Source: an uncultured Candidatus Peribacteria bacterium
GTDB taxonomy: Bacteria; Patescibacteriota; Gracilibacteria; UBA1369; UBA12473
DNA: 64,000 nucleotides
Direction of reading: 5' to 3'
Assembly: GCA_964491515.1 (NCBI GenBank)
Contig: CAZBGQ010000004.1
Coordinates: 18,326 to 82,325, forward strand
Under the pieces are notes generated by a model that saw only the letters and a program-made list of their open reading frames with translations, was not told the origin of the DNA and did not search any database. This document shows, one piece after another, positions 3,952 to 64,000 of the stretch (position 1 is its first letter; each line of letters begins with the position of its first letter). Made by a program: the position numbers and the translations under genes.

Positions 3952-4331
3952 AGTAGTGAAGGCCAATGAAAGGCTCCCCAGAAGAGGAAATTAAAAACAT
4001 AAAAACAAATCATGTCACCAGAATGAGAGTAACGATTGTAACGGCTCCAGAGTTATCTATACACGTACGATTGAAGGATAAGACCGCACCTTGAAAACTA
4101 GTGAAAAAAGAGACCGATGAACCTGAAAAGTTCGTCCCGAATATTATGTGAATGATTGAGTTAGTTCTCATGTCTGACCTTATTGCATAGGTCAAAGTTT
4201 AATTTCAAATTACGATTCCTCTTTATGAGGCGACGCCCCCTTACCTATATATAGGCGGCGGTCCCACTAGATTGGATTCCTTATTTTTCTTAGTTAGTTT
4301 CATTATTTATTTTTTTAATACTCTCCACATT

Positions 4332-7300: not shown

Positions 7301-8135
7301 TCAAGCACTATTCACTGGTCTTGATATGATGGTTCCTGAATCAGAAACCAGTGAGAATGCTGTGAACGTTGAAGTATATGTCACTACTAATGCAGTAGGA
7401 CAAGGTAGTGTTAGTGGTGATCTAGTCGTAATGGACTTCAATGAAGGCCTAGGATTTAAAGCTGTTGGGCAAGGTTCTGGAACCACGGTAACTCATGGTT
7501 CAGCTGCTACGCTCTTCGGTACCACCTCTGATATTGCTGGAAATGCAATCGCTATCTATAAGAGTTTGCCAACCTTCGCTAAAGATACGTCAAGCACAGC
7601 CCCATGTCCTGCTTCAGGATTGGTTGCTGGTTCTGACTCAGCAGTTTACTGTTTCTCAGTCACTGCAAGCTCTGGAGGAGACGTTGCTCTTTATCAGTTG
7701 ACCTTTGATGCAACTCAAAACCTACTTAACACAGGTACATTGGGTGGAACTGCCGGATTCACGCTCTTCAAGTATGAAAGCGATGGAGGCATCATTCAAA
7801 GCTCACTCGGAAGTGGAACATGGGCTAGCAATCAAGTTGCTATCTCCTTCACCTCTGAGGAATTGGTCAGTAAGTCAGCAACTAACTACTACGTGCTTAA
7901 GGCACCGGTTACTTACACTGACAGTACTGATACATCAAGTTTGAGTGTTCGTTTGGCAGCTGAGACCGTAACGGAGCACACTGCTAACGTAGCTGCAGCC
8001 GCTGCTGCTGCTGCCGGACTACAAGCTTGGTCTGATATCTCAGCTACTACTCACTCTGTGACTAGTACTGATTGGACCAATGCTTACAAGCTTGAGAACC
8101 TACCTAGTGGATACCTACAGCTCTCTGAGTCGTAG
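4332..8135 (+). CDS. SLH-domain surface-layer (S-layer-type) protein, 1267 aa, with signal peptide
   Basis: Signal peptide MEKLRKFIAGLSVTALLASVIGFGAIASA. Three SLH repeats (FTDVDSDHWAY..., FSDVSSDAWYAGYV..., FSDVSSGAWYYDAV...GYGDGRFGPGD). An acidic linker, then degenerate Thr/Ser/Asp-rich modules of about 110-130 aa, and a C-terminal poly-Ala. Start taken at the ATG at 4332 rather than the TTG at 4272. Confidence 0.85.
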   Translation: MEKLRKFIAGLSVTALLASVIGFGAIASAATFTDVDSDHWAYSSVEDLASQGVVEGFSDGSFGCAATANRAEFSKMVALAFGFDASTDYDAGFSDVSSDAWYAGYVNVLAQNGVVGGYTDADGDATGLFGPGDTVTRAAAAKMLVAAAGLETMSGGNYFSDVSSGAWYYDAVETLYANSVVDGYGDGRFGPGDDLQRCALAKMVVGAQNPVLRDMGDDDVTGDDDEVVDPEEEVVVSTGALSVAMGDTVTGAAVPKGATGVEMLNVEVSAASDAVRLNELVFHRHGVGASTDFSNVYLYEGADRLTTGRTISSETNNVTFSGLRLDLDAGETRTLTVVGDFATGASASNTDGFELLSADGVSHNGASTGGTFPLVGPAFSVSGASAGSVTITKQGSLSNVTVGDEGAQVAKFRLSASGEDVWLHNVALRLRGSVSSSLVSNFTLWQGTTELATVDALNSQDLMVFVLADPLEIDNGSDTNFTVTADIGAADANDTILIDLDEDTDLVAVGAVYGYGAQVDSDDSNGYDGNTTSAVTSSCSGWTDASCVTVEGGQFTISFNGPSTSDIPTNGNDVVFGRYTLTSEVDVEVRQLQVTFAMTTVDAAGGLYNTTASTPNFTNIKLVDEDTGDVLGSPQDLDSSSDTSQTLDYTDIFYIDAGESRNLKVTADVANNSSLDGQIITATLEEISTSEGVRDLSTGEYVTDIVPASAVAGNPMTVQTPTLSVALASPSTSDTIVKGTNDFDAGFFAFTAGDASDITVTDMTVSCYFDEDADSTAAKGSENSQLCSDVVTSITLFDGDGAQVSTSSKTFSSAGEATFTGMTWTIPAGQTERLVPVVNIGRSGVPTAGTSDIFAIDFTTLSTDVTAQDVDGNSVTLSGTTPNGGTTPTREITVQTAGLITVAASNDPIRDDKVLANDNSANPTLVSRFKIYGQDEDFQVTELAFENDATGATLLENDGAVMSVYLQYPTSLSAPDVLDGSASTILNSSGQALFTGLDMMVPESETSENAVNVEVYVTTNAVGQGSVSGDLVVMDFNEGLGFKAVGQGSGTTVTHGSAATLFGTTSDIAGNAIAIYKSLPTFAKDTSSTAPCPASGLVAGSDSAVYCFSVTASSGGDVALYQLTFDATQNLLNTGTLGGTAGFTLFKYESDGGIIQSSLGSGTWASNQVAISFTSEELVSKSATNYYVLKAPVTYTDSTDTSSLSVRLAAETVTEHTANVAAAAAAAAGLQAWSDISATTHSVTSTDWTNAYKLENLPSGYLQLSES

Positions 8136-36066: not shown

Positions 36067-36780
36067 CTATGCAATCTCGTGAGAAAGGCCCATTGCTTCT
36101 AGGCATGCAACATACTTAGAGCTCTGGCACAGACGGAGGCGTAGGGGGTTCAGGAGGCGCTCTATTCGCTCAGGAGAGCCTACGGGGATCTTACATTCAA
36201 GTATGATTAAGTGGGGGAGATGATGAGCATATTTAAGACGGGGTCTGCGCGCCTGTAGTTGATTGTAATAACCAATATTATAATCAAGAGTGAGACGAAT
36301 TTTACTGTGAGGATCACGGAAATATTCTCGCTGATACTCATTGATTAGAACCGGATCGGATCGGAATAAAAATCGCTCGTATTGTTCTAGTGAAAGATGT
36401 TGGCGGAGTTGGGCTTTTAGTTCTCTGTAGGTGAGTTGATAGATTGGAGTAGTAAGTTGGATTTCGACTCGATCTTTTGAAGAGAAAATATTGGAGCGCT
36501 CTTTGAATTCGAAAAAAATGGTTTTATCTGATGAGTCATACCAGCGAATCCGTGATTTCCAACGACGAGAAATACCAGATTTGTTTTCATCATAGGAAGA
36601 AAAAGAAATATCATCAAAATAGAGTGTCCGATTGGTCGAGACTCGTTTGTGGTGAATAATCGGAAGACAGTTGGAGTTAAGAATTCTGCGTATATAGCTT
36701 AAGTCTCCTCCAATGATCTGAAATTTACGTTCAGCTCGATGGAATGTGACTTGATCCGCTTGGGTGGTGGCTTTAATCAT
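36067..36780 (-). CDS. VTC-domain protein (polyphosphate polymerase-like, CYTH/triphosphate-tunnel fold)
   Basis: FHRAERKFQI, TLYFDD, RRWKSRIRWY and FFEFKER are the basic tunnel-strand motifs of bacterial VTC-domain proteins. No TM helix. Confidence 0.8.
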   Translation of the reverse strand: MIKATTQADQVTFHRAERKFQIIGGDLSYIRRILNSNCLPIIHHKRVSTNRTLYFDDISFSSYDENKSGISRRWKSRIRWYDSSDKTIFFEFKERSNIFSSKDRVEIQLTTPIYQLTYRELKAQLRQHLSLEQYERFLFRSDPVLINEYQREYFRDPHSKIRLTLDYNIGYYNQLQARRPRLKYAHHLPHLIILECKIPVGSPERIERLLNPLRLRLCQSSKYVACLEAMGLSHEIA

Positions 36781-39479
36781 TATAGGTTGGGATTGGTTTC
36801 AACCATTTCAGCAAACACGTCATGTGAGGCGTTGCGATTAGGAGGGAGGAGTACGTCATTCAAATAAACAGTAGATCCTTCATGTACCACCATCTGATCT
36901 GTTGAAATAGTTTTATCCGTTGTGAGAGAGAGTGACGAAGCTCCAAATTCAGATTTTTTTGTATAAGCCGCCAAGTCAAAATAAGTGTTAGCGAGATTTA
37001 CGTCAGAAGCGGTAAGAGATGAAAGATCTTTACTGGTCAGGCCGATAAATGCATCAACAATAGTAGCGCCCGTAAGCGTGACGGTGCTTCCTTCTCCGGC
37101 GCTAACGCCTTTATCTCCAGTTCCTCTTACTAAGAGGTCATTGATCTCTATAACCGTTCCACTGACATCAATACTGTCGTTCCCAATATCTAAAAAGGTT
37201 ATGTCTTCGATGGTACCTTTTGAGAAATCCCCGTCAAAGGCATCTGAAAAAGTTCGAGCTAGGGTCACAGATTTTAGCGCAAATTCAGATTCGACAATAT
37301 TTAAGCCATCTTCTCCGTGCATATCTTGGATAGTTACATTGTCCATATTTACGTTGCTTCGAAAAAATGTAACGCCTCCTGTTAAATTATACGTATCATT
37401 AACTTGTTGTGAGCCACCTGAGAACTGCACATGTTCTAGGGTAGAAGGTGAGTCACCATTTAATACAATGAAAACACCCCAGGGCTCTTCTGGGTTGAGT
37501 GCCTCAATTATTATGGGAGAAGATTCAGTGCCTATAAACTCGAGTGGGGCATAGGAATAGATAGAAACAGAGGGGGCGAGCCGAAGGCGAGCGCCAGGTT
37601 CTGCTTTGAGTGTGTAGCCCGAGGGAATAATTAAGTCATCATTCAAATCCCAGCTCCCAGAGGAGATAGTTACAGTTTTAGAACGTGTATCCTTTATTAT
37701 GAATGGAAAGGATTCTATGTTGGCATTAGACTCCAAGACACGATTTTTTGGGAATGAGGGGGTTAGGGGTGTCCCAGCTACAGTCTCTTGGAAATCCGTT
37801 CCCGAAATACTAAAGTGAACCTCAACATTATGAGGGGTGTCTGTGGACGCTATGTCTAGGCAAATTGATTGATAGTTTGGTGGGGCCAGGTAAAGCGTAG
37901 GCGAAAGCTGGAACTCGTCAAAATAATTAGTGGTTCCACATTGTTGAAGTTCTCTCATTGGAAATAATTTCTCATCGACTTCAACGGAATGAATAGTAAG
38001 CGCAAGGGGAACAAAGTTACCCAGCTGAATTTCAAGGTGATCTAACCCTTCTTCAAGAGATCGAGCCTCGAAACGTGCGTGCAGAAATTGGGGAGGATTG
38101 AATAGTGATCGGATACTATATGCATTAGAGTCAATAGTGTGTCGAATATCTTTGATATTTGTGAAAGGGAATTCTCTCCATAAAAATCCCTGTAAGTGTC
38201 TAAGCTGAGGCTCATAGTGAGACCATAAAGTTTCAACATAATTTTCTTGGCTGACACGCCATAGTTCACTCTGGTAAAGAGGGGAGAATCTTTCATCTTG
38301 CAGGGCGTAGTAAATCAGCCCACGAAAATCAACGATCCCAAGGAGGACTCCTGTTGAACGCTGAACAGCATAATTATCAAAGCTAATAGGCTCAAAATGA
38401 GAAGTAATGGGATTGTAGTAAAAGCGCTCATTATGCCAAAAGTTTCCATGTTCCGCCCCAAATAGTGTTTGAAGTGAAAAATAACGTGCGTACTGTTCAC
38501 AATCAAAAACATCACAAAAGCTCATATTTTCTTGGTCGAACTCTTCTAATAGTGCATAGGCTGATTGTAGCCATTGTGCCTTTTGGGGATCTTCTTGTAT
38601 GTCGTTGAGCTCAAAGGGTTCAAGAGTGGCTGGATTGTGGAGTATGTCATCATGCCCAAAGAGAAGGGTGCTTGCAACAGTTTCTTTCTCGAGGACATTC
38701 ATGTGTGTGGCTCGATCATCCCAGAGAAAGTCTTCATTGTATTTAAAGATTATTGAATCTCGTCGTCCCATACTTTCGACAAGCTCTTTTGTGAAGAATT
38801 CAGAGGTGGCCATTACTCCGATTGATTTCCCATTGAGAATCGCATCAATAAATTCATAGCGTGGCGCAAGTATATTTTCATCTCGTAGTGCTTTGAATAG
38901 AAGCCATTCCCCAAGAAAGTTACGAGTTTTGGGGCTTTGCATTGAGAAGGTTGAAAGACCATTCCATGATTTTGAGTTGCGTATTTTTACGCGAAGAGAG
39001 GGTTTGTCTAAATCTAAGTGGTCGAGCCAGTCCCCCTTTAATCTAATTTTGGTTTTATACTCCCCTCCTTTAGAGGAGCTAATGGTAGCTTTTACATAAT
39101 CATCACTTGAGGAGATTAGAATCCCGACTTGAAGCGCCTCTTGTGCTTTCGCTTCTACTTTTTGCCAATTTTCAAAAGGAACATCTATGTAAATTGTTTC
39201 AAGCTCTTCATTGAAAAGAGGATGTATATAGGATGAAGCATAATGAATGGGGAGAAGTGCGGAATTTTGAAATTGACGAACAAAACGATCTACAAGATAA
39301 GGAAGCGCGTAGCCATACGTCGAATATACAAGGTAGCCAAAGGTTGAGAGAAGAACGAAAAAGAGGCTCAACGCTACTAATATTAGGCGCTTAAATAACC
39401 GACCACGATGACACTGTTTTAAAACAGAAAGAGCTCGGGACCACCAAGTAAAAGTAGATTCGGGGGGGGTAAGTCTCAC
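36780..39479 (-). CDS. CotH kinase-family protein with N-terminal membrane anchor and C-terminal parallel beta-helix-like repeats
   Basis: GTG start 2 nt after the upstream stop. TM anchor LILVALSLFFVLLSTFGYLVY. CotH-like core KIRLKGDWLDHL..KPSLRVKIRNS..FLGEWLLFKALRDENILAPRYEFIDAILNGKSIGVMATSEFF...HGNFWHNERFYYNP. C-terminal repeats NVTIQDMHGEDGLNIV, GNDSIDVSGTVIEINDLLV and GDKGVSAGEGSTVTLTG. Confidence 0.8.
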   Translation of the reverse strand: MRLTPPESTFTWWSRALSVLKQCHRGRLFKRLILVALSLFFVLLSTFGYLVYSTYGYALPYLVDRFVRQFQNSALLPIHYASSYIHPLFNEELETIYIDVPFENWQKVEAKAQEALQVGILISSSDDYVKATISSSKGGEYKTKIRLKGDWLDHLDLDKPSLRVKIRNSKSWNGLSTFSMQSPKTRNFLGEWLLFKALRDENILAPRYEFIDAILNGKSIGVMATSEFFTKELVESMGRRDSIIFKYNEDFLWDDRATHMNVLEKETVASTLLFGHDDILHNPATLEPFELNDIQEDPQKAQWLQSAYALLEEFDQENMSFCDVFDCEQYARYFSLQTLFGAEHGNFWHNERFYYNPITSHFEPISFDNYAVQRSTGVLLGIVDFRGLIYYALQDERFSPLYQSELWRVSQENYVETLWSHYEPQLRHLQGFLWREFPFTNIKDIRHTIDSNAYSIRSLFNPPQFLHARFEARSLEEGLDHLEIQLGNFVPLALTIHSVEVDEKLFPMRELQQCGTTNYFDEFQLSPTLYLAPPNYQSICLDIASTDTPHNVEVHFSISGTDFQETVAGTPLTPSFPKNRVLESNANIESFPFIIKDTRSKTVTISSGSWDLNDDLIIPSGYTLKAEPGARLRLAPSVSIYSYAPLEFIGTESSPIIIEALNPEEPWGVFIVLNGDSPSTLEHVQFSGGSQQVNDTYNLTGGVTFFRSNVNMDNVTIQDMHGEDGLNIVESEFALKSVTLARTFSDAFDGDFSKGTIEDITFLDIGNDSIDVSGTVIEINDLLVRGTGDKGVSAGEGSTVTLTGATIVDAFIGLTSKDLSSLTASDVNLANTYFDLAAYTKKSEFGASSLSLTTDKTISTDQMVVHEGSTVYLNDVLLPPNRNASHDVFAEMVETNPNL

Positions 39480-45086: not shown

Positions 45087-46253
45087 TCATTGCACAACTT
45101 CATGGAAGAGATCAACGTAAGATCGAAGGATTGTGTGCCATGAGAAATCAGTATCCACCCGTTTGCGTGCAGCATTCCCTAGTTGATCGCATAAATCGCC
45201 ATTCTCCAAAAGACGGTGGAGATATCCCTCCATATCCTGTTTTTGATCAGGTTGGAAAATAAGACCACTTTTTTCATGGGAAATGATTTCAATCGTGCCT
45301 CCTACATCGCTGGCCACAATAGGAAGTCCAGCGGCTGCCGCTTCGAGAATGGAACGTGGTAATCCTTCTGAATGAGAAGGATTGATGAAGAAATCTGACA
45401 ATTGCATGCATTCAATAACTTCAGGCCCGGAGAGCAGTCCTAAGAAACGTACATGCTTGCTAAGTCCGGCTTGCTTGATTTCCGATTCTAGGGTCTCGCG
45501 ATAAACACCTTCGCCTACAATTCCAAGAACTAGATTTGGCTCTTTTTTAATCAATCCCGGCAAATAGGGAAGTACATCTTGAACTCCCTTGGCAAAAACC
45601 AGCCGACCTACAAATAGAAGAATTTTGTCGCTAGAGGAAAAACCCCATTTTTTACGGCGAGAAATCCGCCCTGAGGCAGAAAGCGTTGGAGGAAGGGCTA
45701 CACCATTAGGGATAAAACGAACATTTCGTCCATGTAGATGCTTGATAAATTCACATGCGGCCTGGGACACTCCCACATTTCGTTTAGCTCGACGCACCAC
45801 AAACCATCCCATTGTATGATCAATGAAGCGACTGGCAAGATCTACAAAGCGACTTTGCACTACACTGTGGTAGGCGCCTCGTTCGGTATGGACTAGCGGC
45901 TTGAATCGAACTGTTGCATAGAGAGCGCCCAAAAGAGAGGTTACAAAAAAGCGTGTTTGTGTACTGACCACGTCTACCTTGAGCCGCATAAGTTTGAACA
46001 ACATCCAAAGTGCTTTGGGAGTTGGTGCTACAACAGGATAAGTTCCGCCCAAAAGGTGCCAACCCGGAAGTCTTGTTACATGAACACCGTCGATGATCTC
46101 ATCGGAAGGAGCTTTGGAAACATTATTGGTCACAATCCGTACTGTATGGCCCTCTTTTACCAGTGACTTAGATAGACCATGGAGGCTTTCAACATATCCC
46201 CCACGGTAAGGTAGGTAGTATCCGGCAAAAATAAGAATGGAGAGGGGTTTCAT
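45087..46253 (-). CDS. GT-B (family 4) glycosyltransferase
   Basis: NPSHSEGLPRSILEAAAAGLPIVASDVGG. The start ATG overlaps the ahcY stop by 1 nt (TAATG). Confidence 0.85.
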   Translation of the reverse strand: MKPLSILIFAGYYLPYRGGYVESLHGLSKSLVKEGHTVRIVTNNVSKAPSDEIIDGVHVTRLPGWHLLGGTYPVVAPTPKALWMLFKLMRLKVDVVSTQTRFFVTSLLGALYATVRFKPLVHTERGAYHSVVQSRFVDLASRFIDHTMGWFVVRRAKRNVGVSQAACEFIKHLHGRNVRFIPNGVALPPTLSASGRISRRKKWGFSSSDKILLFVGRLVFAKGVQDVLPYLPGLIKKEPNLVLGIVGEGVYRETLESEIKQAGLSKHVRFLGLLSGPEVIECMQLSDFFINPSHSEGLPRSILEAAAAGLPIVASDVGGTIEIISHEKSGLIFQPDQKQDMEGYLHRLLENGDLCDQLGNAARKRVDTDFSWHTILRSYVDLFHEVVQ

Positions 46254-47557
46254 TAGTAGCGATAATGATCCGGCTTATATGGCCCGTCAACCGGGATTCC
46301 TAAGTAGTCTGCTTGTTCTTGGGAGAGTTTCTCGAGGCGAACTCCAATTTTTTCAAGATGGAGTCGTGCTACTTCTTCGTCTAATTTTTTAGGTAAAACA
46401 AACACGCCAACTTCATAGTCGTCCGGCTTGGTGAAAAGTTCGATTTGAGCCAAAACTTGATTGGTGAAAGAGTTACTCATAACAAAGGAAGGATGACCGG
46501 TGGCACATCCAAGATTGACCAAACGGCCTTGAGCTAAGAGTACAATTTCTTTCCCATCAGGGAATACATATTGATCGACTTGAGGTTTGATATTGATCAG
46601 TTTCATTCGTCCAGTTTCGGCTTCGGTATTGAGCCAATTTACATCGATTTCAAGGTCAAAGTGTCCAATGTTGCACACGATGGCTTGATCCGGCATAGAT
46701 TGAAAGTGCTCTGCTCTGATGATGTCACGACAACCGGTTGTGGTCACAAAAATATTACCTTCTTTAGCGGCATCATCCATGGGCATGACTTCAAATCCTT
46801 CCATGGCTGCTTGTAGGGCAATGATGGGATCGATTTCAGTAATAATGACACGAGCACCAAATCCGCGCATAGAGTGAGCACATCCTTTCCCAACGTCTCC
46901 ATAGCCAGCTACCACTACCACCTTTCCAGCAATCATGACGTCGGTGGCACGCTTGAGCCCATCAGCTAACGATTCTCGGCATCCATACAAATTGTCGAAC
47001 TTACTTTTTGTTACCGAGTCATTGATGTTGATGGCAGGAACTTTGAGCTCACCTTTTTCCATCATTTGGTAAAGGCGATGAACACCTGTTGTGGTTTCTT
47101 CAGTGATGCCTTTTACATCTTTGAGAAGTTCTGGGTATTTTTCATGCATCATGACAGTGAGGTCTCCCCCGTCGTCGAGGATCATGTTGGGAACCCATCC
47201 ATCCGGTCCTTTAATCGTTTGTTCGACACACCAGTTATACTCTTCTTCAGTTTCTCCTTTCCATGCAAAGACAGGAACTCCAATCACCGCAATCGCTGCA
47301 GCTGCGTGATCTTGTGTGGAGTAAATATTACAGCTAGACCAACGAACTTCCGCGCCTAATGCGGTCAAGGTTTCAATCAAAACGGCGGTCTGGATAGTCA
47401 TGTGGATACATCCAGCAATACGGGCTCCAGTTAAGGGCTTCGAATCGCCATAGCGTTCACGTAATGCCATGAGCCCCGGCATTTCTTTTTCAGCAATAGA
47501 AATTTCTTTGCGGCCGAATTCAGCCAAGGCAATGTCAGCAACTTTATAATCAGTCAT
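46253..47557 (-). CDS. ahcY: S-adenosyl-L-homocysteine hydrolase
   Basis: [37 protein letters not shown]..., and the [13 protein letters not shown] motif. Start taken at M16 of the ORF-track product. Confidence 0.95.
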
Positions 47558-47689
47558 TTTTAGGAGGATTAATTTAGGAATAAAGTGCGGATAAAATAAC
47601 ACAGATTATGGGTTGGAGCTACGTGGAATGTATTTGACATTGGCGCCTCCTGTGATAGGTTTTGTTACTAAATATATGCACTTATCGAA

Positions 47690-48413: not shown

Positions 48414-49556
48414 TTACGCGAGGCCTGCTGCTTTATTCAAAGCGTCCGCTTTATCAGTTCGTTCCCAAGAGAATGTATCTTCCTCTCGTCCGAAGTGTCC
48501 ATAGGCGGCGGTTTTTTTGTAGATAGGTCGGCGAAGGTCAAGCGTTTTAATGATGCCTTTGGGTGTGAGATCGAAATGGTCACGAACCAAAGTTTCAAGG
48601 GCGGTGTCTTCTATTTTTCCGGTGCCAAACGTATCGACATGAATGGAAACCGGTTCTACCACTCCAATGGCATAGGCAAGCTGAACTTCACATTTGTCAG
48701 CCAATCCTGCAGCCACAATGTTCTTGGCCACATAACGAGCCGCGTAGGCACCAGACCGATCGACCTTAGAAGGGTCTTTCCCGGAGAAACAACCACCACC
48801 ATGTCTTCCCATCCCACCATATGTGTCGACAATGATTTTTCGTCCAGTCAGACCACAATCCCCAGGAGGCCCCCCAATGATGAATTGTCCAGTCGGATTG
48901 ATGTGATAAATGGTGTCATCGTTTAGGTAGTCGCCACAAATAGGTTTGATCACTTGCTCGATCATGTCTTGGCGAATTTGATCCTGATCCGCTTCGGGCC
49001 CATGTTGAGTCGAAATAACCACGGTGTGAACGCGTTTTGGTTTTCCGTCTTCGTATTCCACTGTGACCTGACTTTTACCGTCGGGACGCAAATAGGGAAC
49101 GGTGCCGTCTTTTCGCACGTCAGCCAAACGTTTGACCAATTTGTGAGACAAGCTAATAGGAAGTGGCATGAGCTCAGGCGTTTCGTTGATGGCAAAACCG
49201 AACATCATTCCTTGATCTCCCGCGCCTTCACGATCCACACCCATGGCAATGTCGGGGCTTTGTTCGTCAATGGCGGTGAGAACGGAACAGGCTTTGTGGT
49301 CAAATCCATACGTTCCATCGTTGTAACCAATTTTTTCGATGGTGCCTCTGACCAATTTAGGGATATCCACATAGGCACTTGTGGTGATTTCTCCGGAGAC
49401 AAGCACAAGTCCCGTGGTGATCATAGTTTCGCACGCAACACGTGCCTTGGGATCTTGTTCGAAAATCGCATCTAAAATGGAATCAGAAATTTGATCTGCC
49501 ATTTTATCAGGATGACCTTCGGTCACTGATTCAGAGGTAAAAAGTTGTGTGGACAT
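48414..49556 (-). CDS. metK: S-adenosylmethionine synthetase
   Basis: [33 protein letters not shown], and [16 protein letters not shown]. Confidence 0.95.
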
Positions 49557-49572: not shown

Positions 49573-49713
49573 AAATAAAAAAAATCTTTCCGAGGAAAGA
49601 TTAAGGTTTTAGATTATCTTTCCCCTTTCGGGGCGGAATGAGCACCTTGCACCCGTTAGGGGCTGGTTGCTGTGGAATCATAGGGCCGTATCCCTCCTCC
49701 ACTCTTGATAATG
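49573..49713 (-). promoter_or_regulatory. SAM-I (S-box) riboswitch with intrinsic terminator in the metK leader
   Basis: The minus strand reads TTATCAAGAGTGGAGGAGGGATACGGCCCTATGATTCCACAGCAACC...GGTGCTCATTCCGCCCCGAAAGGGGAAAGATAA. The P1 arms TTATC/GATAA, the GGAGGGA..GGCCC.ATGA core and the GCAACC/GGTGC junction motifs all match the S-box consensus. A hairpin ATCTTTC-CGAG-GAAAGAT plus a T8 run follows (49573-49601). Confidence 0.9.
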
Positions 49714-49924
49714 TCGAATTGTGAAAAGACTAAGTCGATGATACGGGGATAAAAAAACAAGGTCAAGTTCTATTTTTCAGATAAAGTCCTAACATAAAAC
49801 GCCTCTAAGGAGGGACGTGATAAAAAGAAAAGAATTGTGACTTTATCAGATACCTTGGTAGAATTCTGTCACAAGAATCTAAATCTCACAGAGTATTAAA
49901 AAGCGCATCAAATACGATAAATGG

Positions 49925-59707: not shown

Positions 59708-59832
59708 GATGAAACATGTTAGGAACCCTCTGATGATCCTAATTATACACCTTTTGGGGCTCATTTGGGAATGAGCTAATCCAAATTTTTGGGGTCGTCC
59801 TGTATTCAGGAGTGATTAAACCTTGTTAAGGG

Positions 59833-59861
59833 TTGACAAAAACAGGTATAAATGTTAAATT
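59833..59861 (+). promoter_or_regulatory. Sigma70-like promoter ahead of the orphan gene, followed by a GGAGG ribosome-binding site
   Basis: TTGACA (59833-59838), a 16-17-nt spacer, then TTAAAT/TAAATT (59855-59861). GGAGG lies at 59880-59884, 3 nt before the ATG at 59888. Confidence 0.5.
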
Positions 59862-59887
59862 AATCGCCTTTCTTTAATCCGGAGGCA

Positions 59888-61120
59888 ATGCTCTCTCATT
59901 TCGAAACCGGTGGTGCTTTAGCTGCACAAGTCAGCACCCCTCTCTCCGAGGTAGCTCTGCTCAAGCGAATGCTCGAAGGAGGAGGATTAGGAATAGAGCC
60001 TATATCTGACTCTCCTATCCCAGGGTTAGTCTGTCATCAAATAAAAAATGGAGGCGGAGAACCGTTTCCGAGAATTGAACTGGCCACTATGCTCGATCGA
60101 GTTGTGGGCGCATTGTGTCGGTTCGATGAAACACGTCATTTATTTGTGCTTCGAGATCCTAAAACTGATTCAGGAGGAGTGGCCGATGCCATTCGCACGC
60201 TCCATAAAGGGCGACATGCACTAGAATTAAATAATGGTGGAGTGGAATGGGTTCAAAGTGAAGTACGTCAGCGCTTAAGGACACTCACAGAAACCACCCC
60301 GGCCCTCCAGGCCGGCCCCTCAGAACCACCTATATTCACCGTTGGGCAATGGAGTAACGAACGTATTCAAACTTTGGCCAGCCAAGATGACTCTTATGAA
60401 AAAGCAATTTGGCGCAGTCGAGGACAACGTTTAGGCTGGACTATTTTCCCGAATGGACGAGCCTCCATCCCTGACGACGAAGGATTGGTCATGATGTTTC
60501 CTGGAGATATTTCCGATGCGAAGGCACCTGTCAAAGAGTTTCTTTCATGGTCGGAACTGGGATTCATCGCACCTGATGATTTTATTTTTCTTGAGAAAAA
60601 TCCTAGAGTGCGGGGTCGTTTAGCTCGAAATTCTCTGTACAGTGATATTCCGATTGTAGGGAGAACCTTTGGGCAAACTGGTTATAAGACAGGTAAAAAG
60701 CCTAGTACACGTGTTATTTCTGAAGCTCGAAATAAAGGCCGGGCTTATTCCGTACTTAGCTTTGATCCAAATAATAATTTGTCGCGAAGTTTCATCGATG
60801 AAATTGGGTGGGTTCTAAGGTATGGAAAGATTGGAAAGGAGGCATGGGTTGGTGTGAATTTTTCAGCCGATCGGGTCGATGTGAAGAAAATCCCTCTTTA
60901 CGAAGAAATGGCTGGGGGAAGCTTAGCTGAAATGTTTCATGGAAATATAGACGCATTGCGTGAAGCAGCGATTCGAAACGTCATTCCTTCAGTGATTCCT
61001 GCGGGAATGGGTGAGGTTTCTCAGCACACTCTATCCGGAAGTTATCAGGGAAATAGTGGCAATACGCGCATGTTTTACGCCATGCATCATTTAACAAGTA
61101 ATCCATATAAATGGAGGTAA
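59888..61120 (+). CDS. Hypothetical protein, 410 aa, no recognisable domain
   Basis: Clean ORF with its own promoter and SD. The stop region overlaps the start of the downstream helicase gene by 10 nt. Confidence 0.65.
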   Translation: MLSHFETGGALAAQVSTPLSEVALLKRMLEGGGLGIEPISDSPIPGLVCHQIKNGGGEPFPRIELATMLDRVVGALCRFDETRHLFVLRDPKTDSGGVADAIRTLHKGRHALELNNGGVEWVQSEVRQRLRTLTETTPALQAGPSEPPIFTVGQWSNERIQTLASQDDSYEKAIWRSRGQRLGWTIFPNGRASIPDDEGLVMMFPGDISDAKAPVKEFLSWSELGFIAPDDFIFLEKNPRVRGRLARNSLYSDIPIVGRTFGQTGYKTGKKPSTRVISEARNKGRAYSVLSFDPNNNLSRSFIDEIGWVLRYGKIGKEAWVGVNFSADRVDVKKIPLYEEMAGGSLAEMFHGNIDALREAAIRNVIPSVIPAGMGEVSQHTLSGSYQGNSGNTRMFYAMHHLTSNPYKWR

Positions 61121-64000
61121 ATTTTACATCAGCTGCGCAAGTGCCTCCGTCGTCTATCCTGGTTCACCTGGATGAGTTGTTGAGTCGCACGAGTATAGAT
61201 ATAGAACTTATCTCGGAATTTTATCAAACGCTTCAAAGCGTGCCTGATGAAATGGCCGAAGGATTGGAAGACCGTCGTTATCAGATCCGTGCAAAGAAAA
61301 AAATCATTGAGGCTTTTTTGGAAGGTCGTCGTCGTGGTCAGCTCATCATGGGAACTGGCGGAGGGAAAACCGCGGTGGCTATGAGTATTATTGCGCAAAC
61401 AAAAGGTCGAACGCTGTGGCTTGCACCTTCTAAAATTGCGGTCAATCGTGGGATTTCAGAAGCGGAAAAATTTGCTCCTCACAAAACCTGGCATCGCCCG
61501 AAGGGAAAAGATTTTCAGGATTTTGATGACACAAAAGATATTACCTTTGGGACGTCTAGTATGTTTATTTACGGGGAAAAAGGTGCCAATGGCGGAGGAG
61601 ATGAGGAGCACGCTCGAAACGACGAAGAACTCACATCACAAGAAGAAGCAGCCATTGTACGCCGATTCAAACAATTCCCCCCTGATTATTTCGACATAAT
61701 TGTGCTTGATGAAGCACACCATTTTATGGGGAAAGTGATCAAAGAAATCGCCGAACATTTTACCGGTGCCTGTCAGCTCTACATGACCGCAACGCCAGCC
61801 AATGCAAAAAGTCATGTGGATGATATTGTCCCAGATCACTTTGATGACACCTGTAGCTCAGACTATCTCATCGATAAAGAGGGTTACCCTTCCGTTGTTT
61901 ATTATCCTATGGTGGCCGAGGGAGAACATCTCGAAAAAGCCACAGTCAACAATCGAATTCAGATTAAAGATGGGCAAGAAGGAGAGGTGCTCAATATGCC
62001 TTTCCGTTATCAAGCAACCCTTCAAGCCTTTGAAACGGCCATTGAAAAGGGTGAGAAAATTCTGGGTTTTTTGCCCTCAGTGAATTCTTCCTACAACTTC
62101 ATTCATAATGCGGCTCTTAAGGCGCATCCTGACTGGGCGGGAAAAATTGCTCATGTGGATGGAAGCATGAACGCCAAGGAAATTGAGGACATTGAGAGAA
62201 AATTTCGTAGTGGAGAAATTCTTGGTGTGACCTGTAATGCGCTCTGGGAAGAAAGTTTAGATGTGCCGGATATTCAACACATTGTATTAGCTAATCCAAC
62301 CACGTCTCCTCGCCGTATTGAGCAGGCCATTGGTCGTGGACGTCGTCCCGCTGAAGGGAAGACACATTTATACCTTTGGGATGTGGTCTCATCGTTGGCC
62401 AATCTAACCCCTGAACAGTTAGGAAACACACGAACGCCGGTGAGCATTCCGGAGCTACTCGGGTTTGAAGAAGTGGGCTATGGACAAGTTCTCGAAGGTC
62501 CAAACCGTGGTAAAAAATTGGTCACCACCGCTCCTGCAAAAAGGGGAGCTGATGTTCCTGATTTGGTCTATGCCGACTTTAAACGAGGAGAGCTTCAGTA
62601 CCTTGAATATAATGAGAGGATCAGAAACATGGCCTTCCTTCGTGATGGGAAAGTAGCCGCAAATCTTTATCGCTGTTTTGCGGAGAATGTGTTTGATACA
62701 CATCCGCTTAACCTGATTCTCTCGCCTGACTTGTTCATGGATCGCGACGAGAAGGTCCAAGTCCAAGACGAAAATACCGGTCTGGAATTCATGATCACAT
62801 TCAAAGATGCCTTTCATGCTGCCAAGTTGTACCGTGCTCTAGACAATATTCAAGAAGAAATCCTTCAGGATGTGGACGTGCTTTGTGATCAAGTTCATGA
62901 ACGTGTTGTCGACGTGTTGGCAGAAGAATTAAAATTCGAAAAGTATCGACAATCTGAAGAAGAATATTATGGATGGTTTATAGCCTTACTTGAAAATTAC
63001 TATGATGGATTGTTGGAAACACAAGGCCGAGATGAATTTGAAGATTATTTACACACCACTCAGTGGATGGATGTAGCTATGGGTATGTTGACAGAGGTAG
63101 ACAAACTAAGGCCGCATGAAATGGAAGAAGGGATGGTAACTGAACTGGCACTATGGATGGCTGGTGACTCGAGTGAATGTGCAAAGGCAAAACAAGCTTT
63201 TATACGTGCCTCACGTACTACCTTAAGATTAAAAACAAAGCCCGGGTTGCCGCCTATTCCAATGTGGCAACCAGATTATGAGGGAGCTCAAGAAGCCATC
63301 CAAGACGGACGAATTGGAGCCAGGCTGGAAGGCTACAGGCAGGCAATAGTTTTCGAAAAATACCGTTGTTCAGTAGAAGACTATGCACATTGGATAGAAG
63401 ATTTTCTTTTGTATTGTCATTGTAAGGATGAACTATTTGCACTTTTGAGAGTTGAAATTTTCGCACAGGTAGCAACTAGCATCCGAGAGGAAGAAGGAGG
63501 ATACATCACTGAAGTGAAAGATGAGGCTTTTATAGCAGGCCTTACTACTTGGTTAATGAAAGACAATAAGGAAAGAGCCAAGGCAAATGAGGCGCTTCGA
63601 GGATGTATCAAAAATATTATTTTATATGGAGATCGAGAGGCTAGATCCGCTCTTCCTAGCGAGATCAGGGGTGACGATTTTTACGTGGGAGCTGCAACTC
63701 AAGAAGAACTCAAGAAGGTTCTGGAACATGTTCATATTATCGTAAATCATCATGAGTCATCCTCGGTTACTTCATCTCCTGAAACGCTCGAATTCGAAGC
63801 TTTTCGTCCAAATCAAGAGACTTATGAAACCGCCATCTGGGAGGATGGATTTAGGGGAAATGGGATCCCCGACTATGCTCCCCCAGGATTTGATGGATGG
63901 TTAAGAAATGATCTGTTTATGATGGCAGCCATGCACGCCTATTCGGAATGGGAAAATGAGGAATTTTTAGCTGGCTTTGCTCGTTGGCTGATGTCCCAAC
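61111..64000 (+). CDS. Large SF2 DEAH-box helicase (ResIII/COG1061-like core) with long C-terminal extension; 3' end beyond the window
   Basis: Absent from the ORF track (no stop in the window). ATG at 61111 directly follows an in-frame TAA, and I read this frame through to 64000 without noticing a stop (not re-checked codon by codon). Motifs: RRYQ, I MGTGGGKT, Ia LWLAPSK, II VLDEAHH, III YMTATPA, V EESLDVPD, VI RIEQAIGRGRR. More than 500 aa follow with no motif I recognise. Confidence 0.85.
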   Translation, partial: MEVNFTSAAQVPPSSILVHLDELLSRTSIDIELISEFYQTLQSVPDEMAEGLEDRRYQIRAKKKIIEAFLEGRRRGQLIMGTGGGKTAVAMSIIAQTKGRTLWLAPSKIAVNRGISEAEKFAPHKTWHRPKGKDFQDFDDTKDITFGTSSMFIYGEKGANGGGDEEHARNDEELTSQEEAAIVRRFKQFPPDYFDIIVLDEAHHFMGKVIKEIAEHFTGACQLYMTATPANAKSHVDDIVPDHFDDTCSSDYLIDKEGYPSVVYYPMVAEGEHLEKATVNNRIQIKDGQEGEVLNMPFRYQATLQAFETAIEKGEKILGFLPSVNSSYNFIHNAALKAHPDWAGKIAHVDGSMNAKEIEDIERKFRSGEILGVTCNALWEESLDVPDIQHIVLANPTTSPRRIEQAIGRGRRPAEGKTHLYLWDVVSSLANLTPEQLGNTRTPVSIPELLGFEEVGYGQVLEGPNRGKKLVTTAPAKRGADVPDLVYADFKRGELQYLEYNERIRNMAFLRDGKVAANLYRCFAENVFDTHPLNLILSPDLFMDRDEKVQVQDENTGLEFMITFKDAFHAAKLYRALDNIQEEILQDVDVLCDQVHERVVDVLAEELKFEKYRQSEEEYYGWFIALLENYYDGLLETQGRDEFEDYLHTTQWMDVAMGMLTEVDKLRPHEMEEGMVTELALWMAGDSSECAKAKQAFIRASRTTLRLKTKPGLPPIPMWQPDYEGAQEAIQDGRIGARLEGYRQAIVFEKYRCSVEDYAHWIEDFLLYCHCKDELFALLRVEIFAQVATSIREEEGGYITEVKDEAFIAGLTTWLMKDNKERAKANEALRGCIKNIILYGDREARSALPSEIRGDDFYVGAATQEELKKVLEHVHIIVNHHESSSVTSSPETLEFEAFRPNQETYETAIWEDGFRGNGIPDYAPPGFDGWLRNDLFMMAAMHAYSEWENEEFLAGFARWLMSQ

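What the first reader, a model, noticed from the sequence alone, without database searches (positions are those of the whole stretch)
59765..64000. Orphan 410-aa protein translationally coupled to a giant SF2 DEAH helicase: candidate two-gene system of unknown function
Seen: gene 59888-61120 has a near-consensus promoter (TTGACA-17-TAAATT) and a GGAGG site 3 nt from its ATG. Of roughly 30 gene starts I inspected in this window, it is the only one with a clear Shine-Dalgarno sequence. The helicase ATG (61111) lies inside the last codons of the orphan gene (ATGGAGGTAA, a 10-nt overlap) and directly follows an in-frame stop. The helicase core carries motifs I (GTGGGKT), II (DEAH), III (TATP) and VI (QAIGRGRR), of the ResIII/COG1061 type. 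At least 530 further residues are uncharacterised, and the ORF leaves the window. By eye, the segment is more GC-rich than the adjacent glycan island. Established: pairs of an unknown effector or sensor with an SF2 helicase are a recurrent architecture of anti-phage defence systems such as Hachiman. Inference: this may be a defence-like or otherwise mobile two-gene module. I could not recognise any nuclease, protease or TIR/SIR2-type motif in the 410-aa protein, so its function is open.
Basis: partly seen in the sequence, partly recalled or inferred. Interest (0 to 1): 0.7.

Follow-up and report, generated by a model that had tools for sequence, protein, structure and literature searches.

The report
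Methyltransferase-like protein, giant helicase, AT-hook partner
The 'orphan' protein has a highly diverged methyltransferase fold and is always encoded directly upstream of a very large helicase, usually with a small DNA-binding partner downstream, in a rare gene module of tiny uncultured (Peregrinibacteria-like) bacteria that matches no known defence or housekeeping system.

Summary
ORF A (59888-61120, 410 aa) overlaps by 10 nt the start of an SF2 helicase gene B (61111 onward). On the parent contig B encodes 3485 aa.

A has no hit in Pfam, NCBIfam, PADLOC or PHROGs. Only 33 clusters match it among 1.84 billion representative proteins. A 33-sequence AlphaFold model (pLDDT 81) shows an N-terminal domain plus a class I SAM-methyltransferase fold. 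The conserved residues sit at the cofactor-binding positions.

In all 12 genomic contexts examined, A is directly followed by the same helicase subfamily. One protein fuses the two.

B consists of a ResIII/Helicase_C core, a family-specific post-helicase domain, and a fast-evolving array of ~140-aa helical modules. Total B length ranges from 1062 to 3485 aa.

In at least six relatives a convergent downstream gene C encodes a basic protein, with AT-hook motifs in most, plus one copy of that module.

The trio lies among housekeeping genes, keeps synteny in close relatives, and has moved as a unit in one. Nothing related to A turned up in phage, plasmid or viral-contig collections, and no nuclease domain was detected.

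My reading is a nuclease-less, restriction-modification-like DNA methyltransferase/translocase complex. The defence or mobile-element reading is neither supported nor excluded.

The parts
59833..59861 (+). Sigma-70-type promoter of the operon: TTGACA, 17-nt spacer with TG, TAAATT.
   Evidence: Consensus scan gives 10 of 12 matches. The same TTGAC-N17-T(A/T)AAAT element is conserved upstream of A orthologues in L008, L014, L015, L021, L023 and L024.
59881..59885 (+). GGAGG, 2 nt upstream of the ATG. It may act as a weak Shine-Dalgarno site but is probably not a conserved signal.
   Evidence: It is the only GGAGG in front of 49 gene starts in the window. It is kept in L008 only, and its spacing is shorter than usual.
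59888..61120 (+). Gene A: 410-aa two-domain protein, founding member of an undescribed family (33 clusters world-wide).
   Evidence: ORF list. No hit in Pfam, PADLOC, NCBIfam or PHROGs. A search of 1.84 billion representative proteins found 33 family members.
59945..60307 (+). A, N-terminal beta-rich domain (aa ~20-140). It is variable across the family and absent from the helicase fusion P0035, so it may be an adaptor or a target-recognition domain.
   Evidence: AF2 model with pLDDT mostly 75-93 in this region. The only structural matches are weak, to Alba/Sso10b (E about 0.1). Family alignment.
60383..61102 (+). A, C-terminal class I (Rossmann) SAM-methyltransferase-like domain (aa ~166-405). 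Conserved residues: FPG (G206 invariant) after beta1, invariant E236 at the end of beta2, D293-P294 at the end of beta4, and a terminal beta6-beta7 hairpin.
   Evidence: AF2 with a 33-sequence alignment, pLDDT 80.8. Nearly all of the top ~30 Foldseek PDB hits are SAM methyltransferases; the best is TYW2 3a27, E 6.8e-4, probability 1.0. Conserved columns.
61111..61120 (+). 10-nt overlap of the A stop with the B start (ATGGAGGTAA), giving translational coupling.
   Evidence: Sequence. The same or similar overlaps occur in L008, L014, L015, L022, L023 and the P0018 locus.
61111..64000 (+). Gene B (first 963 of 3485 codons): giant SF2 helicase.
   Evidence: Translation. Full length from the parent contig ERZ4231641 NODE_1.
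61267..62391 (+). B helicase core (aa 53-427): ResIII plus Helicase_C, with motif I at 61351-61371, DEAH at 61708-61719 and motif VI at 62323-62346.
   Evidence: Pfam. phrog_16 'DNA helicase' at 5e-44. The nearest solved structure is a type I R subunit, 3h1t, at 2.5e-16.
62401..62910 (+). B post-helicase domain (aa 431-600), the signature of this helicase subfamily, with no known family match.
   Evidence: Found in all 11 B proteins tested, including the fusion P0035 (iE 1e-41 to 1e-77 in a small database). No Pfam hit.
63010..64000 (+). First copies of the ~140-aa helical 'R module' (aa ~634-982, three copies). Up to 11 copies occur in the full protein.
   Evidence: Chunked self-BLAST and jackhmmer. 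The same module occurs once in the downstream AT-hook proteins of related loci.

Best explanation
Proposed model. A, B and (in relatives) C form a chromosomally encoded, cytoplasmic machine that most likely acts on DNA and is restricted to Peregrinibacteria-like CPR bacteria.

Components:
- A is a two-domain protein. Its C-terminal half is a diverged class I SAM-methyltransferase fold that keeps the cofactor-binding positions.
- A is made in fixed ratio with B through translational coupling, and I infer that it binds B.
- B is an SF2 ATPase of the ResIII / type I HsdR / XPB kind. I infer that it translocates on double-stranded DNA.
- B carries a family-specific post-helicase domain and a long, rapidly expanding array of ~140-aa helical modules.
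- C is a basic protein, with AT-hook motifs in most lineages, carrying one copy of the same module. I infer that it tethers the complex to AT-rich DNA or docks onto B's tail.

Functional analogy. It works like a Type III or Type ISP restriction-modification enzyme (methyltransferase subunit upstream, ATP-driven Res-type motor downstream) but has no recognisable nuclease. The likely output is therefore modification or remodelling of DNA, or marking and sensing of it, rather than cleavage.

What is shown: gene linkage, the fusion protein, the folds, the conserved residues, the promoter and the repeat architecture.

What is inferred: physical complex formation, DNA as the substrate, and methyltransferase activity.
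For: - Linkage: A is followed by the same helicase subfamily in 12 of 12 contexts. P0035 fuses the helicase, the post-helicase domain and the A core into one protein.
- Coupling: 10-nt overlap at the A/B junction. The promoter is conserved upstream of A across six related loci.
- A fold: pLDDT 80.8. Nearly all of the top ~30 PDB structural hits are SAM methyltransferases. G206 and E236 are invariant and D293-P294 nearly so, and they sit at motif I, II and IV positions.
- B is DNA-type: ResIII and Helicase_C. Its nearest relatives are phage 'DNA helicase' (phrog_16 at 5e-44; 28-30 % identity), EcoAI-type HsdR, and XPB and UvrB.
- C: AT-hook motifs (GRP cores) and one R module shared with B's tail.
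- Cytoplasmic: no TM-like segments in A or B.
- Chromosomal and vertically inherited: synteny is conserved in L001, L008 and L014. A has no hits in plasmid, phage or viral-contig collections.
- SAM supply: metK with a SAM riboswitch and an AdoHcy hydrolase lie in the same window.
Against: - No biochemical evidence exists.
- A lacks the canonical (D/N)PP(Y/F) of DNA amino-methyltransferases; it has DP(E/N)xxL instead. In the window's own subclade the motif I loop carries an insertion (FPGDISDAKAPVKE), so A could be catalytically inactive or act on RNA or protein.
- TM-scores to solved methyltransferases are moderate (0.3-0.5 normalised to the target).
- The best PDB hit is a tRNA-modifying enzyme (TYW2).
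- Gene C could not be checked downstream of B in the window's own organism, because the DNA held ends ~450 nt before B's stop.
- The taxonomic label rests on a single GTDB genome.
Confidence: 0.55

Rival explanations
1. A new anti-phage or anti-mobile-element defence system. A would mark or recognise DNA, B would translocate and block or destroy foreign DNA (possibly through an undetected nuclease in its tail), and the fast-changing tail and C would track invader counter-defences.
For: - The methyltransferase plus ResIII helicase order mirrors Type III R-M, and helicase-methyltransferase pairs recur in DISARM and BREX (established knowledge).
- A, C and the B tail diverge faster than flanking genes: 73 % against 82-93 %, and 36-38 % against 52-76 %.
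- Tail length varies from 1062 to 3485 aa.
- The trio has relocated as a unit in L021.
- In the Peribacteria MAG it sits near an integrase and an Eco57I-type methyltransferase.
- Only 33 clusters exist, which suggests patchy presence.
- A preprint notes that CPR restriction-modification-like proteins are unusually often linked to helicases.
Against: - No PADLOC model matched A. The matches to B cover only parts of its generic SF2 core, and none is a model of a specific helicase-methyltransferase system.
- No nuclease, protease, TIR or SIR2 domain was found in any A, B or C protein.
- No spread outside one lineage was seen, and none to phages or plasmids, which is unlike most defence systems.
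- The flanks are housekeeping genes and synteny is conserved in three lineages.
Confidence: 0.25
2. An RNA-directed pair. A would be an RNA (tRNA, rRNA or cap-like 2'-O or base) methyltransferase and B an RNA helicase or RNP remodeller.
For: - The top solved structural match is the tRNA-modifying TYW2, and other hits include METTL-type and mitochondrial rRNA methyltransferases.
- A K172...D293...(K/R)329 spacing is loosely reminiscent of the 2'-O-methyltransferase K-D-K-E tetrads (my reading).
- The best viral structural hits are giant-virus proteins, one annotated as an RNA polymerase subunit.
Against: - B's closest families are all DNA translocases: HsdR, Res, XPB, UvrB and phage DNA helicases.
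- Partner C carries AT-hooks, which are minor-groove DNA binders.
- The third tetrad position is not a conserved Lys, and the fourth is Gln in the window protein.
Confidence: 0.1
3. A is a catalytically dead methyltransferase-fold adaptor, and the trio is a structural or chromosome-organising scaffold: a bacterial chromatin-remodeller-like motor with a modular helical tail and an AT-hook tether.
For: - The motif I loop is disrupted by an insertion in the window, L008 and L014 subclade, and motif IV is non-canonical.
- B has a very long helical repeat tail, and C has AT-hook or (GGKK)n basic tracts resembling histone tails.
- The promoter looks strong and constitutive and is conserved.
- The genomic context is housekeeping.
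Against: - The invariant G206, E217, W221 and E236 and the near-invariant D293-P294 argue for a retained ligand pocket.
- There is no precedent in bacteria and no direct evidence.
Confidence: 0.1

Closest known systems
Type III restriction-modification systems (Mod-Res, e.g. EcoP15I)
   Same: The methyltransferase-fold gene lies directly upstream of, and overlaps, a ResIII-type SF2 ATPase gene. The implied complex is a methyltransferase subunit with a motor subunit.
   Different: - A does not match N6_N4_Mtase or any Mod model and lacks DPPY.
- B has no detectable PD-(D/E)xK nuclease.
- B carries a unique post-helicase domain and up to ~2900 extra residues of repeats.
- A third AT-hook partner is present.
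- Distribution is restricted to one CPR lineage.
Type ISP restriction-modification enzymes (LlaGI, LlaBIII)
   Same: The fusion P0035 has the order helicase, then methyltransferase-like domain, then a C-terminal region, which recalls the single-chain order of nuclease, helicase, methyltransferase and target-recognition domain. The LlaGI and LlaBIII helicase lobes are weakly hit by B (1.4e-5).
   Different: There is no Mrr-type nuclease, the methyltransferase is not of the gamma-N6A type, and sequence similarity is limited to the generic helicase C-lobe.
Type I R-M HsdR, EcoAI/FtnUII family
   Same: This is the best NCBIfam and PDB sequence match for the N-lobe of B (2.6e-23; 3h1t at 2.5e-16). 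Plasmid tblastn hits are annotated as this family.
   Different: The score of 82 bits is far below the family cut-off of 550. There is no HsdM or HsdS partner and no nuclease domain.
   Same: A two-gene unit in which a protein of unknown family precedes a large SF2 helicase.
   Different: No PADLOC Hachiman model matched either protein. A has a methyltransferase fold, not the DUF1837 nuclease fold of HamA.
Phage replication-module 'DNA helicase' (PHROG 16)
   Same: This is the best profile match to the whole B core (5e-44 over aa 51-427), with 28-30 % identity to Streptococcus prophage helicases.
   Different: The phage proteins lack the post-helicase domain, the repeat tail and the A partner. 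A has no phage homologue.
Uncharacterised giant-virus proteins (Hyperionvirus A0A3G5A855; Mimivirus AB-566-O17 'putative helicase domain protein')
   Same: These are the best structural matches to the A model overall (E 1.3e-8 to 1.4e-5, probability 1.0). One is itself joined to a helicase domain.
   Different: The evidence is similarity of predicted structures only (TM 0.3-0.46, 8-11 % identity). Their function is unknown, and I could not fetch their sequences to test homology.

Membership tests
Class I SAM-dependent methyltransferase superfamily (fold level), protein A aa 166-405 | Seven-stranded Rossmann-like alpha/beta fold ending in an antiparallel beta6-beta7 hairpin. | tested here: met
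   The AF2 model (pLDDT 80.8) has the matching secondary-structure order. Nearly all of the top ~30 Foldseek PDB hits are SAM methyltransferases, with best E 6.8e-4 and probability 1.0.
Class I SAM-dependent methyltransferase superfamily (fold level), protein A aa 166-405 | Gly-containing motif I loop after beta1, and an acidic residue at the end of beta2 that binds the SAM ribose. | tested here: met
   FPG with invariant G206 follows beta1 (aa 200-203). The invariant E236 follows beta2 (aa 232-235) in all 33 sequences. In the window's subclade the loop carries a 6-7 residue insertion.
Class I SAM-dependent methyltransferase superfamily (fold level), protein A aa 166-405 | Binding of SAM and methyl transfer. 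| not testable with these tools
   Requires biochemistry.
DNA N6-adenine / N4-cytosine amino-methyltransferases (the Mod/HsdM kind) | Catalytic (D/N/S)PP(Y/F/W) motif IV and a match to the N6_N4_Mtase, N6_Mtase or MethyltransfD12 profiles. | tested here: not met
   Motif IV is D-P-(E/N)-x-x-L, with no second Pro and no aromatic residue. There is no Pfam or NCBIfam hit at E <= 1.
SF2 helicase, ResIII/DEAH type, protein B aa 53-427 | Walker A (motif I), DEAH (II), TAT (III) and the arginine finger of motif VI, in two RecA-like lobes. | tested here: met
   GTGGGKT, DEAH, TATP and QAIGRGRR are all present. Pfam gives ResIII at 5.7e-23 and Helicase_C at 4.9e-13, both above the gathering cut-offs.
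Type III R-M Res subunit, or Type I HsdR | A PD-(D/E)xK (or other) endonuclease domain on the motor subunit. | tested here: not met
   No nuclease family was detected in seven B homologues, including the window's own B. All NCBIfam scores are far below cut-off (82 against 550 for EcoAI HsdR). A very diverged nuclease hidden in the tail cannot be excluded by sequence profiles alone.
Known anti-phage defence systems (PADLOC-DB v2: Hachiman, DISARM, Druantia, BREX, Hma and others) | Proteins match the system-specific HMMs over most of their length. | tested here: not met
   A has 0 hits. B has only partial hits to its helicase lobes, from REase_I, mREase_IV and PbeA.
Mobile genetic element cargo (phage, plasmid or integrative island) | Homologues on phages or plasmids, or flanking integrase, tRNA or direct-repeat signatures. 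| tested here: not met
   A has no tblastn hit in 50,697 phage and 72,556 plasmid records and none in IMG/VR. The window flanks are NnrD, DUF1385 and ProC. Only the L015-17 lineage has an integrase ~4 kb upstream. The 3' flank of the window locus could not be read.
   The flanks are the same in L001, L008 and L014. The trio is relocated within the same neighbourhood in L021 and sits in unrelated contexts in L015, L018, L020 and L022-24. Only 33 clusters exist world-wide and one GTDB species was found, by a narrow pattern scan. No proper presence/absence survey was possible.

The most novel reading that the evidence does not exclude
A-B-C would be a previously undescribed class of nuclease-free DNA-modification/translocation system specific to ultra-small CPR bacteria. 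It would comprise a new methyltransferase-fold family, a motor with an expandable modular tail, and an AT-hook tether. It would serve either as a new kind of epigenetic immunity or as a bacterial chromatin-remodeller analogue. Its methyltransferase-like fold would be shared with helicase-associated proteins of giant viruses.
Probability: 0.3. Interest if true: 0.75.

Novelty: new variant of a known kind. Interest (0 to 1): 0.55.

Why it matters
CPR bacteria have tiny genomes, so devoting up to ~12 kb (about 1 % of a ~1.2-1.4 Mb genome) to one conserved operon of unknown families implies an important function.

If the trio is a nuclease-less methyltransferase/translocase system, it would extend the known range of helicase-coupled DNA-modification machines. 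It would also define three new protein families: the A family, the B post-helicase domain and the R module.

The work turns a featureless 'orphan' into a testable prediction: SAM binding through G206, E236 and D293, complex formation with B, and DNA tethering by C.

The structural link to helicase-associated giant-virus proteins is a further lead.

Tried and rejected
- AF2 of A with a 3-sequence alignment gave pLDDT 43, and the Foldseek output was meaningless. It was superseded by the 33-sequence model.
- Profile searches of the A family and of the R module against PDB sequences gave only chance-level hits: ribokinase at 0.2, RFC at 0.06, aminopeptidase N at 0.015.
- The word-indexed protein search found only 2-3 A homologues and 4 B homologues. 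The exhaustive HMM search was needed to find the rest.
- Scans of IMG/VR and JGI metagenome contigs with the A alignment found no relatives.
- The GTDB scan found one locus through a single narrow peptide pattern, so it does not measure prevalence.
- I could not obtain the last ~150 codons of B or its downstream gene in the window's organism. The locus limit is 10 kb, and B itself was not returned by the protein searches.
- Chance adjacency or a spurious ORF was rejected by the 12 of 12 linkage, the fusion protein and family conservation.
- A secreted or surface giant protein, as in Omnitrophota giant genes, was rejected. There are no TM or hydrophobic segments, and that literature describes SecA-type, TM-rich proteins.
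- The GGAGG as a meaningful conserved Shine-Dalgarno site was rejected. It has 2-nt spacing, is not conserved beyond the closest relative, and is about what chance gives among 49 starts.
- A GC anomaly or recent transfer was rejected. The segment's GC equals that of other housekeeping parts of the window.

Full report
**1. The observation**

ORF A (59888-61120, +, 410 aa) and the start of ORF B (ATG at 61111) are as described.
- The B start follows an in-frame TAA (61108-61110) and overlaps the A stop by 10 nt.
- A TTGACA-17-TAAATT site with an upstream TG lies at 59833-59861.
- On count alone such sites are not enriched (5 found, 5.4 expected). However, a TTGAC-N17-T(A/T)AAAT element is kept upstream of A orthologues in L008, L014, L015, L021, L023 and L024, so it is a real conserved promoter.
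- GGAGG at 59881-59885 is the only GGAGG before 49 candidate starts in the window.
- That GGAGG lies only 2 nt from the ATG and is conserved only in the nearest relative. I regard it as incidental.
- The striking point is rather that this genome hardly uses Shine-Dalgarno sites at all.
- GC content here (0.44-0.47) equals that of other housekeeping stretches. The neighbouring glycan region is the AT-rich outlier.

**2. The locus beyond the window**

The window is identical to an ENA metagenome contig of 378 kb (L001; 0 mismatches over 4236 nt).
- On that contig B encodes 3485 aa. I read 3336 of them.
- Six other assemblies carry the same sequence at 99.98-100 % identity (L002-L007).
- Five of those contigs (L002-L006) end inside B; three of the breaks fall in B's internal ~315-aa tandem repeats.

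**3. Protein B**

- Core: Pfam places ResIII and Helicase_C at aa 53-412.
- Best profile match: phage 'DNA helicase' phrog_16 (5e-44).
- Nearest curated and solved relatives: EcoAI-type HsdR, XPB/Rad25 and UvrB, all far below family cut-offs.
- PADLOC gives only partial helicase-lobe hits.
- A post-helicase domain follows the core at aa 431-600. It is present in all 11 family members tested and matches nothing known.
- The tail has a ~140-aa helical 'R module' repeated up to 11 times. Three copies lie inside the window at aa ~634-982.
- The tail also has a ~315-aa tandem repeat in three copies.
- No nuclease or other effector domain and no TM-like segment were found.

**4. Protein A**

- A has no hit in Pfam, PADLOC, NCBIfam or PHROGs.
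- An exhaustive HMM search of 1.84 billion representative proteins found only 33 family members. None carries an informative name.
- A 33-sequence alignment gave an AlphaFold model with mean pLDDT 80.8.
- The model has an N-terminal beta-rich domain (aa 20-140), a disordered linker, and an alpha/beta domain (aa 166-405) with the strand order and terminal hairpin of class I SAM methyltransferases.
- Foldseek against the PDB returned almost only SAM methyltransferases in the top ~30: TYW2, COMT, Coq5, NovO, ArsM and others. The best E-value is 6.8e-4 with probability 1.0.
- The family-invariant residues fall where the cofactor is bound: G206 in the loop after beta1 and E236 at the end of beta2. 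The near-invariant D293-P294 sits at the end of beta4, the catalytic motif IV position.
- The canonical DPPY of DNA amino-methyltransferases is not present.
- Against predicted viral structures, the best hits are uncharacterised giant-virus proteins (E 1.3e-8 to 1.4e-5). One of these is a 'helicase domain protein'.

**5. Linkage of A and B**

- Starting from B, four homologues of 1839-2897 aa each have an unannotated ORF of 383-435 aa abutting or overlapping their start. Three of these ORFs were shown to be A homologues by alignment or profile search, at 37, 27 and 22-25 % identity.
- Starting from A, the 74 % homologue and five distant homologues (P0018, P0009, P0012, P0020, P0015) are each followed directly by a ResIII/Helicase_C gene of 1062 to 2421 aa. 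One of these is cut by the contig end.
- That makes 12 of 12 contexts with the pair intact.
- P0035 (1129 aa) fuses the same helicase subfamily with the A core domain. Its helicase part is 30 % identical over 540 aa, including the post-helicase domain.
- This is strong evidence that A and B act together, probably as a complex.

**6. A third gene, C**

A convergent gene of 235-367 aa lies just downstream of B in L008, L014, L015, L021, L022 and L024.
- These genes encode homologous proteins.
- Most have AT-hook-like GRP motifs: KRGPGRPKG, RRGPGRPPKR and NRGRPRTKPR. L014 has a (GGKK)n tract instead, and the L024 motif is degenerate.
- Each carries a C-terminal copy of the R module found in B's tail (iE down to 8e-35 in a small database). 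For C_L015 this rests on BLAST similarity to the module region of C_L022 and C_L021.
- L018 instead has a 691-aa protein with two R modules.
- I could not read this position in the window's own organism.

**7. Genomic behaviour**

- The only taxonomically labelled locus is a 'Candidatus Peribacteria' MAG, phylum Peregrinibacteriota.
- In L001, L008 and L014 the module lies in the same housekeeping neighbourhood: ProC, DUF1385, (Cu-oxidase_4, Amidohydro_2), NnrD, then A-B-C, then Aldedh and MscS.
- L021 keeps those neighbours, but A-B-C sits five genes away, between shikimate dehydrogenase and LspA. The trio therefore moves as a unit.
- Other lineages carry it in unrelated, mostly housekeeping contexts.
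- One lineage has it near an integrase and an Eco57I-type methyltransferase.
- A has no relatives in the phage, plasmid or viral-contig collections.
- Divergence between the window organism and L008: flanking proteins are 82-93 % identical, the B core 81 %, A 73 %, and the B tail 41-50 %.
- Divergence against L014: flanks are 52-73 % identical and A 38 %.
- A, C and the tail thus evolve faster than their surroundings. Tail length differs two-fold between organisms whose neighbouring genes are ~85-90 % identical.

**8. Interpretation**

The best-supported reading is a heteromeric DNA-directed machine.
- It resembles Type III / ISP restriction-modification in its logic: a methyltransferase-fold subunit coupled to a Res-type motor.
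- It differs in lacking a recognisable nuclease, in having an expandable modular tail, and in having an AT-hook partner.
- Whether it discriminates foreign DNA (defence) or acts on the cell's own chromosome is open. I put defence at about 0.25.
- RNA targeting, or a catalytically inactive adaptor role for A, remain possible.
- Membership in N6/N4 DNA methyltransferases, Res/HsdR proper, or any PADLOC system was tested and not met.

**9. Novelty and score**

Helicase-methyltransferase pairs are a known kind. This one consists of three undescribed families (A, the B post-helicase domain with the R module, and C) and is confined to a CPR lineage. I rate it a new variant of a known kind, interest 0.55. 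There is a 0.3 chance that it represents a distinct, nuclease-free modification/translocation system, which would merit about 0.75.

Noticed in passing
window, 49 candidate gene starts (whole window): Shine-Dalgarno motifs are almost absent. Only 1 of 49 starts has GGAGG and one more has AGGA. Upstream regions are A/T-rich. This suggests SD-independent initiation in this organism.
   Followed up: partly
window 49611-49714 (-), 48414-49556 (-), 46253-47602 (-): A SAM riboswitch (Rfam RF00162, 74.8 bits) lies in front of metK (SAM synthetase), with an S-adenosylhomocysteine hydrolase 1 kb further on. This is a SAM-cycle cluster ~10-13 kb from the methyltransferase-like gene.
   Followed up: partly
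window ~9000-36000: A long one-strand gene block has low GC (0.36-0.42) and strongly positive GC skew (+0.2 to +0.36). This is the 'glycan island'. It contains several large ORFs (867 and 839 aa) with no Pfam match.
   Followed up: no
window 4272-8135 (+): A 1287-aa protein with three S-layer homology (SLH) domains and an otherwise unannotated body. A related Peribacteria locus (L015, 19180 onward) also encodes an SLH/fn3 giant protein.
   Followed up: no
window 36780-39479 (-): An 898-aa protein with a weak CotH kinase domain (5e-7), unusual for a CPR-type genome.
   Followed up: no
window 59862-59880; L008, L014, L015, L021, L023 upstream of A: A short pyrimidine-rich element (CCTTT or CCTTA) directly follows the -10 box in the leaders of A orthologues. 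It may be a conserved transcription-start or leader feature.
   Followed up: no
L001 13443-16272 (inside gene B, beyond the window): Independent assemblies of the same population break inside B, three of the five breaks at the ~315-aa tandem repeats. B genes of this family are therefore likely to be truncated or missed in many MAGs.
   Followed up: partly
L015/L016/L017 1-8000 (Ca. Peribacteria MAG): Here the A-B-C trio lies ~4 kb from a tyrosine integrase and near an HsdM_N/N6_Mtase/Eco57I-type gene, with several small unannotated ORFs between them. This may be an island context, unlike the other lineages.
   Followed up: no
model of A (window 59888-61120) against BFVD: The best structural neighbours are uncharacterised giant-virus proteins from Hyperionvirus, Catovirus, Mimivirus and Pithovirus. 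They include chromo-domain, helicase-domain and RNA-polymerase-subunit fusions.
   Followed up: no
JGI sample 3300072015 (loci without DNA): The sample that holds the window's organism also holds two further, divergent A-B pairs (P0007/P0005 and a 404-aa ORF with P0006). One lies next to ~1800-2000-aa unannotated and beta-helix proteins. They may be separate organisms or paralogous copies; this is undetermined.
   Followed up: no
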